A stretch of DNA of 63,765 nucleotides, the filler included, from Collodictyon triciliatum (Eukaryota): assembly GCA_043381765.1 (NCBI GenBank). It is 7 parts of 7 records of this genome, joined end to end, with 100 filler letters (N's around TTAATTAATTAA, not from the genome) between each part and the next. Parts side by side here need not be neighbours in the genome. Positions count along the whole stretch, not along the records: positions 44,040 to 54,629 come from JBHJMP010002626.1; 6 more parts are not named here. One strand, written 5' to 3'. The position numbers and the translations under genes were made by a program. This document shows, piece by piece, positions 47,551 through 49,359 of this stretch. Positions within the stretch are counted from its first letter, which is position 1, and every line of letters starts with the position of its first letter. The notes beneath the pieces were generated by a model. It worked only from the letters and a program-made list of their open reading frames with translations. It ran no database searches and was not told where the DNA came from.

Positions 47551-49359
47551 TAATAATATAACAATTATAACAATAATAATAGTGATATTACATATGGTAG
47601 AGACCATAACATAATTTATAATTTATTTCCTTTAGACAATGTACAAGCCTGGACCGAAGATTATTTCCCACTCGACCCAAAAGGCATCGTCGATATGACA
47701 TCACCTGTCGAGAAACTTGATGTTCTTCAAGCAGAGATAAGTGCACTAGAAAGGAAAAAGAGCTGGTCAGAAGCCATACCGAAGGCAGTTGAGTTGCTTG
47801 CCCTGACAAATATCTGTGATGGATTTGGGAGTATAAACTCTGCCGAAGCCACCCTCCAGCTCGCTCGATATTACTTTTCTTTGAAGCACTATCCAACAGC
47901 CCTGGCTCATTTGAATAATGCAATCAAGATCACAGATGAATTTTTTCTTAACCCCCGTAATGGCGGGCTTGTCACAAAAGCTGAAAAGGACTCACTTCTC
48001 TCTGGAATCCTTCTAGTCAGGGGGCGCTGCTACGACAAACTCAACCAATATCCTTTTCCAATAGAAATAGTATATTTGAAAGCTGTCACCAAAAGTTTGA
48101 GGCCTATTATCACCACTTAAATATTGCCCCTTAATATAATTCAAGCCCCCTCTCGCGCATGAGGATTTGAAGCTTGCATTGCAATTGCATCATATGAGTT
48201 CTGCATCAAATGGCAGTTCCAGCGGTGGACCTGAGGATGAAAATGCATCTGAATCATATTGTCGATACTGGGCAGCATTTGCTGCTCTTTGCATCAACCA
48301 GGGCTCTTTCGACAAAGCATACCATTTTCTCAAGAAAGTAAGCTTTAGCATATGATAAAGACGTACAAAACTATTACTAATAATAAATTCCGTGAGATTT
48401 ATACATGTACTAGTCAACTTTAGTATATAAACGCGCTTATACAAAATAATTATTTATTAATGGAACGATTATAAATAATCATTATCGGTATGTCTCAGGT
48501 GACAAAATTCTCAACTTACACAAACGAGAAAGATAACAATGTCGCACCGATGCTGAAGAGAACCATGATGGTTTTCTTTTCCTTTTTCCTTTTTCCTTTT
48601 TCCTTTTTTTAACCTTTTTCCCCTTTCCCCCCTTTTCTTCCCCTCATTTATCATTTCGTCTTTCAACTTCGATTATGCCTGCTTGTCTAAAATTATGCTG
48701 GCTCCTTGTGCAAACTTATATACAAGTTTTGAAAACCCGCCATTTTTATTTTGAAGGAATTCGGGAAGGACAAAGGACTGGTCTCTGAGGCCATCGAATG
48801 CGGAAACCTGTTGTTAGACATCTATGAAGCGCACACACAGACCCAGAAAGCTATTAAAGTCCAGTTGATGATTGGGCGACTGTACATGGGCAAGGGGGAT
48901 TTTGCAATAGCCCAAAAGCTTTTTCATGACGGAAAGAAAGGAGCGAAAGGCACCGTAGACATGTCTGACCGGCGTAGCCGAAAAGCCTGTGAAGATGAAG
49001 CCAAGTGTCTCATTCAGTTGGATAAGTATGTTGATGCTGCAAAGCTTGCACACGATATTCGGCAGTATCTGGAAAGAGAGACGGACCGGAAGTCCCTTGA
49101 ACTGGCCGGGATATACCGCATGTGTGGAACTATTGCTCATGCACAGAAGAACTATGTAGCAGCCGAGACAAACTACGAAAAAGCACTCCAAGTGTATCAG
49201 ATTCACTACTCCAAAGACCATATAGTGCCCCGCAAAGTGACCCAAAAGATTAGCGAAGTTAGGCTCAAGAAGGATTTTCGTGATATGTCTCAACGCGACG
49301 ATTATCTCTATGAGGAACCTGTTGACCAAGATAATGACGGTGATGATGATGGCTTCTAA
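44874..49359 (+). CDS. TTC23-like tetratricopeptide repeat protein with a long disordered N-terminus
   Basis: AVELLALTNICDGFGSINSAEATLQLARYY resembles TTC23 as I recall it (ALTRICYGDSHWKLAEAHVNLAQGY). Further TPRs RGRCYDKLNQ.., IGRLYMGKGDFAIA and AETNYEKALQVYQIHYSKDH. Stop TAA at 49359. Confidence 0.75.
45471..45661. repeat. (ATAATG/CTAATG)n repeat in intron 1 of the TTC23-like gene
   Basis: Read directly. Confidence 0.95.
46921..47000. repeat. (TTA)n intronic microsatellite
   Basis: Read directly. Confidence 0.95.
47455..47580. repeat. (TAA)n intronic microsatellite
   Basis: Read directly. Confidence 0.95.
48048..48144 (+). other. Probable U12-type (minor spliceosome) intron with AT-AA termini
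   Basis: 5' site ATATCCTTTT at 48048 and branch-site CCCCTTAAT at 48127-48135. The frame-restoring end is TCAA|G at 48144, and removal gives exact TPR spacing. Confidence 0.7.

What the first reader, a model, noticed from the sequence alone, without database searches (positions are those of the whole stretch)
48048..48144. Probable U12-type intron with rare AT-AA termini in the TTC23-like gene, with a competing in-frame GT-AG intron
Seen: the exon ends ...AAC CA, followed by a perfect minor 5' splice site ATATCCTTT (48048). A U12-style branch sequence CCTTAAT lies about 10 nt from the 3' end. The donor is phase 2, so the AG ending at 48145 is out of frame; cutting after AA (48144) gives CA|G and RGRCYDKLNQPPLAHEDLKLAL, the exact TPR register (G8, Y11, A20, L24, A27). 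An overlapping GT-AG intron (48070-48145) is also in frame but inserts 7 aa (YPFPIEI) into the TPR. Established: AT-AA is a rare U12 subtype and the minor spliceosome has been lost in many protist lineages. Inference: this lineage retains the minor spliceosome, and the site may show U12/U2 alternative splicing or conversion in progress. It is the only frame-consistent U12 signature I found among the introns traced here.
Basis: partly seen in the sequence, partly recalled or inferred. Interest (0 to 1): 0.8.

Follow-up and report, generated by a model that had tools for sequence, protein, structure and literature searches.

The report
Minor-spliceosome intron in a protist gene
A 97-base intron in a repeat-protein gene of a little-studied freshwater protist carries the signals of the rare "minor" splicing machinery and is cut out of RNA exactly where those signals predict, which suggests that this deep-branching lineage still uses that machinery.

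Summary
A perfect minor-type donor, ATATCCTTT, starts at 48048 after a phase-2 exon end. A CCTTAAT branch motif lies 10-11 nt before 48144. One cDNA contig of run X1 joins 48047 to 48145 and removes exactly the 97-nt AT-AA intron. No contig uses the GT donor at 48070, and none covers the intron.

The only detectable homologue is a Diphylleia rotans transcript family.
- It has the same length across the junction, with no 7-residue insert.
- 2 of its 6 isoforms retain an intron at the same codon, and the read-through begins Tyr-Pro, the translation of R|TATCC.

So the intron predates the split of the two protists. Two genes of the window match Diphylleia best, so the organism is probably a diphyllatean (CRuMs). 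I found no printed report of minor splicing in that group.

Limits:
- Dependence on U11/U12 snRNPs could not be tested: no genome is held, and the window has no snRNA.
- "TTC23-like" is only a lead. Human TTC23 does host a minor intron (PMC12332006), but positional identity is untested.
- U2/U12 alternative splicing or conversion is unsupported.

Verdict: a known kind, new member.

The parts
47636..48047 (+). Coding exon upstream of the intron. It ends in phase 2 (..AAC CA) and encodes TPR-like helices.
   Evidence: X1 contig piece 47634-48046 (the first 2 bases are ambiguous with the upstream exon). Open frame. 50% identity to Diphylleia P0001 residues 508-643.
48048..48056 (+). Minor-type 5' splice site ATATCCTTT.
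   Evidence: It matches all 9 positions of the consensus /RTATCCTTT (consensus recalled from the literature).
48048..48144 (+). 97-nt intron with AT-AA termini, 30% G+C.
   Evidence: The joint in X1 record 1 skips 97 bases, with 194 or more bases on each side. Length and composition.
48129..48135 (+). Branch-site motif CCTTAAT. The candidate branch adenosines are 48133 and 48134, which lie 11 and 10 nt from the last intron base.
   Evidence: It is the only CCTTRAY within 500 nt downstream of any of the 8 RTATCCTT sites in the window.
48143..48144 (+). 3' terminal dinucleotide AA. The adjacent AG (48144-48145) is not used as the acceptor.
   Evidence: The contig keeps G 48145 in the mRNA. The AG acceptor would shift the frame into a stop.
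48070..48071 (+). GT of the competing in-frame GT-AG intron (48070-48145). It is not seen in use.
   Evidence: One search shows it is in frame and adds 7 residues. None of the 8 laid records shows this joint. The homologue has no insert.
48145..48337 (+). Downstream coding exon. G 48145 completes the split codon CA|G.
   Evidence: X1 piece 48144-48337 and X2 piece 48185-48337. Aligned to P0001 residues 645-704.
48338..48498 (+). Next intron, 161 nt, GT-AG (major type).
   Evidence: The joint 48337|48499 is seen in one contig each of X1 and X2. The Diphylleia 720-aa isoforms diverge at the homologous point.
48499..48570 (+). Small 72-nt exon (24 codons). Its 3' end is inferred.
   Evidence: Contig pieces 48499-48565 in X1 and X2. 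A GT at 48571 and the reading frame suggest an end at 48570 (my reading). The joint abuts a repeat that the tool skipped.
48757..49359 (+). Last coding exon with TPR units and the stop codon. The poly(A) site is near 49411.
   Evidence: Pieces 48752-49411 followed by a loose run of A in X1 and X2. Pfam TPR_12, E 1.3e-6. 42% identity to P0001 residues 724-896.

Best explanation
Bases 48048-48144 are a genuine U12-type (minor-spliceosome) intron of the rare AT-AA ('A-type', AT-AN) subclass. It lies in the turn between the two helices of a TPR unit of a 9-exon TPR-protein gene. The organism is probably a diphyllatean protist (CRuMs).

Inferred mechanism: U11 snRNA pairs with ATATCCTTT and U12 snRNA with CCTTAAT. 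The branch forms at A 48133 or 48134. Because the minor spliceosome measures the 3' site from the branch rather than reading AG, it cuts after AA 48144, 10-11 nt downstream, and keeps G 48145. This restores the codon CA|G and an ungapped TPR.

Shown: the signals, the exact RNA junction, and conservation of the intron position in Diphylleia.
Inferred: that minor snRNPs carry out the cut.
For: 1. Signals. The donor matches 9 of 9 consensus positions. The branch motif lies 10-11 nt from the 3' end, and there is no pyrimidine run behind it. Only 1 of 8 RTATCCTT sites in the window pairs with a branch motif, and the joint chance for a given junction is about 1e-7.

2. RNA. X1 record 1 (2225 nt, depth 9.79) joins 48047|48145. 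Only 1 base is ambiguous, so no direct repeat is present that would suggest template switching. X1 and X2 are cDNA, shown by poly(A) and template-switch-oligo loose ends. No run has depth inside the intron.

3. Homologue. The only strong hit among 1.84 billion representatives is P0001 (E 4e-34; 12 hits at E<=1e-3, 1 at E<=1e-10), from Diphylleia rotans. Its 908-aa forms are colinear with the AT-AA product.

4. A prediction made before looking. 2 of the 6 Diphylleia isoforms (651 aa) diverge right after the homologous Lys and read YPQTLS then stop. Y-P is what R|TAT CCN encodes in phase 2.

5. Pfam TPR_2 aligns P0001 residues 632-660 to profile positions 3-31 without a gap across the junction at residue 645.

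6. In the same window, all 13 phosphatase-gene introns that I modelled are GT-AG with weakly conserved donors. The 9-base match therefore stands out.
Against: - Only one contig from one run spans the junction. X2 starts at 48185. X1 and X2 may not be independent: they come from the same study, share the same SNP and have equal depth.
- No minor snRNA and no U11/U12-specific protein was shown. No genome is held, and the window has none.
- By the published presence criteria (at least 3 minor introns and at least 2 minor snRNAs; PMC10639083, passage seen), one intron does not establish minor splicing in a genome.
- The branch motif ends in T rather than the consensus C.
- The Diphylleia evidence is at peptide level only. 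Its third read-through residue, Gln, implies C rather than T at intron position +8.
- RTATCCTTT alone is not enriched in the window.
Confidence: 0.85

Rival explanations
1. The functional intron is the major-type GT-AG intron 48070-48145. The protein then carries seven extra residues, and the AT-AA form is minor or artefactual.
For: GT 48070 and AG 48145 exist and are in frame. Major-type donors in this organism are weakly conserved, and 2 of the 13 modelled acceptors end in AAG, so the sites are not implausible. Contigs can hide rare isoforms (note).
Against: None of the 8 laid records shows this joint, and the only record that spans the site shows AT-AA. The Diphylleia protein has no insert. 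An insert with two prolines would break an ungapped TPR unit.
Confidence: 0.03
2. The intron is real and AT-AA, but the major spliceosome removes it as a non-canonical intron. The lineage has lost the minor spliceosome, and the U12-like motifs are leftovers or chance.
For: No minor snRNA or protein was demonstrated. Many lineages have lost the minor spliceosome (PMC10638273, passage seen; PMC10639083, introduction passages seen).
Against: The chance that both motifs fall at one junction is about 1e-7. The Tyr-Pro read-through in Diphylleia indicates that the donor has been kept since the two protists split. Major-type AT-AC introns have a different donor (recalled, not from a call).
Confidence: 0.07
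3. There is no splicing. The 97-base skip is an assembly or reverse-transcription artefact, or a genomic deletion allele in the strain that was sequenced as X1.
For: There is only a single contig. X1 differs from the window at 3 positions in this exon, so it is another strain or allele.
Against: Only 1 base is shared at the joint, so no repeat is present for template switching. The skip begins exactly at a 9 of 9 donor match and restores the frame. Diphylleia shows both spliced and retained forms at the same codon. The same contig also splices the neighbouring GT-AG intron.
Confidence: 0.03

Closest known systems
A-type (AT-AN) U12-type introns of animals and plants, AT-AA subtype (de Wolf et al. 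2021, PMC8280824; Larue & Roy 2023, PMC10639083; passages seen)
   Same: AT-AA termini, a long conserved donor, a branch motif close to the 3' end, and a phase other than 0. AT-AA is the commonest non-canonical minor-intron terminus in both kingdoms. Non-canonical termini make up about 4% of conserved minor introns.
   Different: The host is an uncatalogued protist, probably a diphyllatean. The intron is short (97 nt). The branch motif ends in T. Dependence on the minor spliceosome or on CENATAC was not tested.
Intron at the same codon of the Diphylleia rotans orthologue (EukProt EP00002; 651-aa isoforms P0013 and P0017)
   Same: Same position in the alignment. The phase is compatible with phase 2. 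The read-through begins Tyr-Pro, as R|TATCC predicts. The next intron is also at the same place.
   Different: Only the peptide was seen, not the nucleotides. The third read-through residue implies C at intron position +8. The termini and branch site are unknown.
Human TTC23 minor intron, used as a 'model' minor intron that is retained after RNPC3 knockdown (PMC12332006; passages seen)
   Same: The host is a TPR protein. Language-model look-alikes of the exon include 'TTC23-like' clusters at ranks 6-7, score 0.92.
   Different: Sequence homology was not shown: phmmer found no TTC23 and there was no PDB hit. The position of the human intron relative to this one could not be compared with these tools.
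Ordinary major-type GT-AG introns of the same window
   Same: Similar length: 89 to 613 nt in the phosphatase gene and 161 nt for the next intron.
   Different: Those introns have only GT plus weak context at the donor and YAG or AAG at the acceptor. This one has a 9-base conserved donor, a branch box and a non-AG end.

Membership tests
U12-type (minor) spliceosomal intron | Extended 5' splice site /RTATCCTT (consensus recalled) | tested here: met
   ATATCCTTT at 48048-48056 matches 9 of 9 positions.
U12-type (minor) spliceosomal intron | Branch box TCCTTRAY about 10-15 nt from the 3' end, with no long pyrimidine tract (consensus and distance recalled) | tested here: met
   CCTTAAT at 48129-48135, preceded by C instead of T. 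The candidate branch A lies 10-11 nt from 48144. The last 9 bases, ATAATTCAA, have no pyrimidine run.
U12-type (minor) spliceosomal intron | Excised from RNA at the predicted termini | tested here: met
   The one record that spans the site joins 48047|48145. Eight records were laid from 4 runs.
U12-type (minor) spliceosomal intron | Position and type conserved in orthologues | tested here: met
   Diphylleia isoforms diverge at the same codon, and the read-through starts Y-P. This is at peptide level only.
U12-type (minor) spliceosomal intron | Splicing depends on the U11, U12, U4atac and U6atac snRNPs | not testable with these tools
   This needs knockdown, lariat mapping or in-vitro work.
U12-type (minor) spliceosomal intron | The genome encodes minor snRNAs and U11/U12-specific proteins | not testable with these tools
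   No genome is held. The window has no Rfam hit at the gathering threshold and only two unrelated weak hits at E<=1.
TTC23 / TTC23L protein family | Detectable sequence homology to animal TTC23 | tested here: inconclusive
   phmmer of the exon found only Diphylleia plus generic TPR hits. Word-based searches found nothing. Atlas features place 'TTC23-like' clusters at ranks 6-7 (score 0.92), behind other chordate TPR_12 clusters and ZMYND12.
TTC23 / TTC23L protein family | Minor intron at the codon homologous to the human TTC23 minor intron | not testable with these tools
   Human TTC23 hosts a minor intron. No animal gene structures are available here.
Major-type GT-AG intron (the competing 48070-48145) | Junction used in RNA | tested here: not met
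   None of the 8 records shows it. Rare forms cannot be excluded from contigs.

The most novel reading that the evidence does not exclude
This is the first documented minor-spliceosome intron in CRuMs (Diphyllatea). [quoted passage not shown]
Probability: 0.25. Interest if true: 0.55.

Novelty: new member of a known kind. Interest (0 to 1): 0.4.

Why it matters
Minor (U12-type) splicing is ancient but unevenly kept among eukaryotes. CRuMs branch next to Amorphea and have almost no genomic description. An RNA-verified, positionally conserved U12-type intron gives the first concrete handle for asking whether this supergroup keeps the second spliceosome. It also gives a test case for very old minor introns if the site matches human TTC23.

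In practice, gene finders that allow only GT-AG will mis-model this gene by adding seven residues or shifting the frame. The same will hold for other minor introns of this assembly.

Tried and rejected
- **Whole-genome search for U12 snRNA.** No genome is held for this window.
- **Rfam on the window.** Nothing at the gathering threshold. At E<=1 there were only a sub-threshold mir-297 match inside a repeat and a CrcZ match.
- **Word-based protein searches** with the exon and with the last exon, 'longer' lengths. No hit at E<=1e-3.
- **Two scans of metagenome contigs** for genomic relatives, one with the exon and one with alignment A1. 262 and 152 pattern matches; none was confirmed.
- **PDB sequence search** with P0001: 0 hits.
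- **Atlas on the last exon.** Only generic TPR clusters, mostly bacterial.
- **Other U12-like donors.** The sites at 1038(+), 14786(-) and 28749(-), and the relaxed set of 29 RTATCCY sites, gave no second convincing candidate. The site at 56492(+) has TCCTTAAT 132 nt downstream but no usable 3' site and no coding context.
- **Parts of the stretch without read cover** (intron interior; 48356-48497; 48569-48710). These say nothing by themselves.
- **Earlier notes of this scan.** None on this genome or on look-alikes. The U12 notes found concern catalogued human introns only.
- **Splice-model script.** It stopped with an error after 13 of 16 inter-HSP gaps. The remaining 3 were not modelled.
- **Pfam test on a typed piece of P0001** across the junction.
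- **Supplements of the minor-intron papers** (MIDB lists, Dataset EV1 of PMC8280824, tables of PMC10639083) are closed. They may list the human TTC23 intron coordinates and any CRuMs taxa that were surveyed.

Full report
**What is in the sequence**

Searches confirm every element of the observation.
- The coding exon that begins at 47636 ends ...AAC CA at 48047, in phase 2.
- The next nine bases, 48048-48056, are ATATCCTTT.
- CCTTAAT lies at 48129-48135.
- The stretch ends ...TTCAA at 48144, followed by G at 48145.

In-script translation tested three possible cuts.
- AT 48048 to AA 48144 restores the split codon (CA|G) and an open frame.
- The adjacent AG (48145) as acceptor runs into a stop after eight codons.
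- The overlapping GT 48070 to AG 48145 intron is in frame but adds seven residues (YPFPIEI).

The intron is 97 nt long and 30% G+C. The candidate branch adenosines lie 11 and 10 nt from its last base.

**Is it more than chance?**

The donor word alone is not. RTATCCTTT occurs 4 times on both strands against 2.05 expected, and 15 of 100 shuffles reach 4. The combination is.
- Of the 8 RTATCCTT sites in the window, only this one has a CCTTRAY 40-500 nt downstream.
- From the window's own word frequencies, the chance that one given junction has both signals in the right places is about 1e-7.
- The other exact matches (1038+, 14786-, 28749-) and a relaxed set of 29 RTATCCY sites gave no second convincing candidate.

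The consensus motifs and the 10-15 nt branch distance are recalled from the minor-intron literature. They come from no call.

**RNA evidence**

One search for sequencing runs gave four holders, with coded ids. All four were laid on 47575-49700.

X1 and X2 are cDNA: their contigs end in poly(A) at 49411 and carry template-switch-oligo loose ends.

Of the 8 records laid, only one spans the site. It is X1 record 1, 2225 nt long, at depth 9.79.
- It runs 47634-48046, then 48144-48337, then 48499-48551.
- The tool reports a skip of 97 bases with one ambiguous base.
- Only one base is shared at the joint, so a template-switch artefact at a direct repeat is unlikely.
- The same contig also splices the neighbouring GT-AG intron.

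No record shows the GT 48070 joint, and no run has depth inside the intron.

Limits of this evidence:
- It is one contig from one run.
- X2's contig starts at 48185. It shares a SNP and its depth with X1, so it may not be independent.
- Contigs drop rare isoforms.

**Comparative evidence**

A full HMMER scan of 1.84 billion representatives with the exon gave 12 hits at E<=1e-3. Only one was strong: P0001, E 4e-34, 51% identity. Its cluster is six Trinity isoforms of Diphylleia rotans from EukProt.

The two 908-aa isoforms are colinear with the AT-AA product and have no seven-residue insert.

Before looking at the shorter isoforms, I predicted that a 651-aa form would be an intron-retention product whose read-through starts Tyr-Pro. 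This is because R|TAT CCN in phase 2 encodes Y-P. The two 651-aa isoforms diverge directly after the homologous Lys and read YPQTLS, then stop.

The two 720-aa isoforms diverge at the point homologous to 48337|48338, with a read-through starting Val (GTN). So two consecutive intron positions are shared.

Pfam aligns a TPR_2 unit to P0001 residues 632-660 (profile positions 3-31) without a gap. That places the junction, at residue 645, at about position 16 of the repeat, in the turn between its two helices.

The Diphylleia evidence is at peptide level only. The third read-through residue, Gln, implies C rather than T at intron position +8.

**Which organism?**

The window is not one contiguous piece. 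Six spacers of 44 N + TTAATTAATTAA + 44 N split it into seven pieces. This gene lies in piece 44040-54629.

Two genes on different pieces have their best matches in Diphylleia rotans.
- The TPR gene.
- An EF-hand protein phosphatase at about 5100-9816, at 75% and 64% identity. Seven proteins passed E<=0.001 among 38 candidates, and the next best are unnamed.

Near-identical transcript fragments occur in a freshwater metatranscriptome and in an aquaculture metatranscriptome (X3: 192 nt, 1 difference; X4: 268 nt, 0 differences).

I infer a diphyllatean (Collodictyon/Diphylleia group, CRuMs) other than D. rotans itself. This is an inference from best hits, not a phylogeny.

**How it most likely works**

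The signals are those of the minor spliceosome.
1. The U11/U12 di-snRNP recognises the donor and the branch box together.
2. The branch forms at A 48133 or 48134.
3. The 3' cut is placed by distance from the branch rather than by an AG. This explains why AA|G is used although an AG overlaps it by one base.

The 13 introns I could model in the phosphatase gene are all GT-AG with weakly conserved donors (the script stopped with an error after 13 of 16 gaps). The nine-base donor match here is therefore exceptional for this genome.

The signals, the junction and the conservation are shown. The involvement of the U11, U12, U4atac and U6atac snRNPs is inferred.

**What is against it, or untested**

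- No minor snRNA or U11/U12-specific protein could be looked for. No genome is held and the window has none.
- The published criterion for calling a genome minor-intron-positive is at least 3 introns and at least 2 minor snRNAs (PMC10639083, passage seen). A single intron does not meet it.
- The GT-AG alternative is plausible on sequence grounds: 2 of the 13 modelled acceptors end in AAG. It has no RNA or comparative support.
- 'Conversion in progress' has no evidence.

**Comparison with what is known**

- AT-AA is the commonest non-canonical minor-intron terminus in animals and plants. Non-canonical termini make up about 4% of conserved minor introns (PMC10639083, passages seen).
- AT-AN introns form the 'A-type' class that depends on CENATAC in human cells (PMC8280824, passages seen).
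- Human TTC23 is used as a model minor-intron gene that shows retention after RNPC3 knockdown (PMC12332006, passages seen).

Whether the present gene is a TTC23 orthologue is open.
- phmmer finds no TTC23.
- The PDB search gave nothing.
- The language-model look-alikes put 'TTC23-like' clusters at ranks 6-7, score 0.92, behind other chordate TPR_12 clusters and ZMYND12.

From recall only, the primers printed in that paper seem to bracket the homologous part of the human protein. I could not test this.

**Novelty**

The full-text searches gave the following.
- Collodictyon + U12: no paper.
- Diphylleia + 'minor spliceosom': no paper.
- Diphylleia + U12: no paper.
- CRuMs + minor spliceosome: one paper, which mentions the two terms in unrelated passages.
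- The six-term search: none of the 12 listed of 94 papers holds 'U12-type'.
- The main text of the pan-eukaryotic survey names no CRuMs taxon.
- The Mantamonas genome paper holds neither U12 nor spliceosome.

Supplements are closed, so surveyed-taxon tables could not be checked.

Earlier notes of this scan on U12 introns concern catalogued human genes only, and none concerns this genome.

**Verdict**

A real, RNA-supported U12-type AT-AA intron that is conserved with Diphylleia. It is a new member of a well-known kind, in a lineage where the kind has apparently not been described. Interest is moderate.

Noticed in passing
window 10603-10702, 21329-21428, 32028-32127, 43940-44039, 54630-54729, 61553-61652: Each gap is 44 N + TTAATTAATTAA + 44 N. 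That is a six-frame-stop spacer of the kind used to string separate contigs together (the meaning is recalled). The window is therefore seven joined pieces that end in simple repeats, and gene neighbourhood across the spacers is not real synteny.
   Followed up: partly
window 48499-48570: A small 72-nt exon between the exon that ends at 48337 and the last exon, seen in cDNA contigs of X1 and X2. It matches a 27-residue stretch of the Diphylleia protein. Its downstream joint (probably GT 48571 to AG 48756) abuts a repeat that the tool skipped and was reported as 48565|48752.
   Followed up: partly
window 5100-9816 (+): A gene for an EF-hand protein phosphatase (PPEF/rdgC type), 60-80% identical to two Diphylleia rotans paralogues. 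It has at least 13 short GT-AG introns (89-613 nt) whose donors share little beyond GT.
   Followed up: partly
window 1038-1046 (+): GTATCCTTT, a perfect GT-subtype minor donor word, lies 230 nt upstream of a family-2 glycosyltransferase ORF (1270-2091), with open frames before it. There is no proper branch box, only TTCCTTTTAT about 8 nt before an AG near 1108. No RNA data were laid here.
   Followed up: partly
P0015 and P0016 (Diphylleia rotans isoforms); window 48337|48338: The 720-aa Diphylleia isoforms retain the next intron at the position homologous to the window's GT-AG intron 48338-48498. So 4 of the 6 assembled isoforms of that gene are intron-retention forms, and retention is not special to the U12-type site.
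   Followed up: yes
window 47743, 47820, 47826, 48909: The cDNA contigs differ from the window at four coding positions: one Ala>Thr change and three synonymous changes. The freshwater metatranscriptome contig shares only the first. So several strains or alleles of this organism are in public data.
   Followed up: partly
runs X1 and X2: Two runs of one study that are labelled as different organisms hold the same 3' transcript, with the same SNP and nearly the same depth (28.4 and 28.2). They may be one data set, a shared contaminant or prey, or cross-talk. I treated them as not independent.
   Followed up: no
window 21207-21275 (-): A sub-threshold Rfam match to mir-297 (46.8 bits against a gathering score of 90), about 50 nt from the (TACA)n repeat that ends this piece at the 21329 spacer. 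It is most likely a repeat artefact.
   Followed up: no
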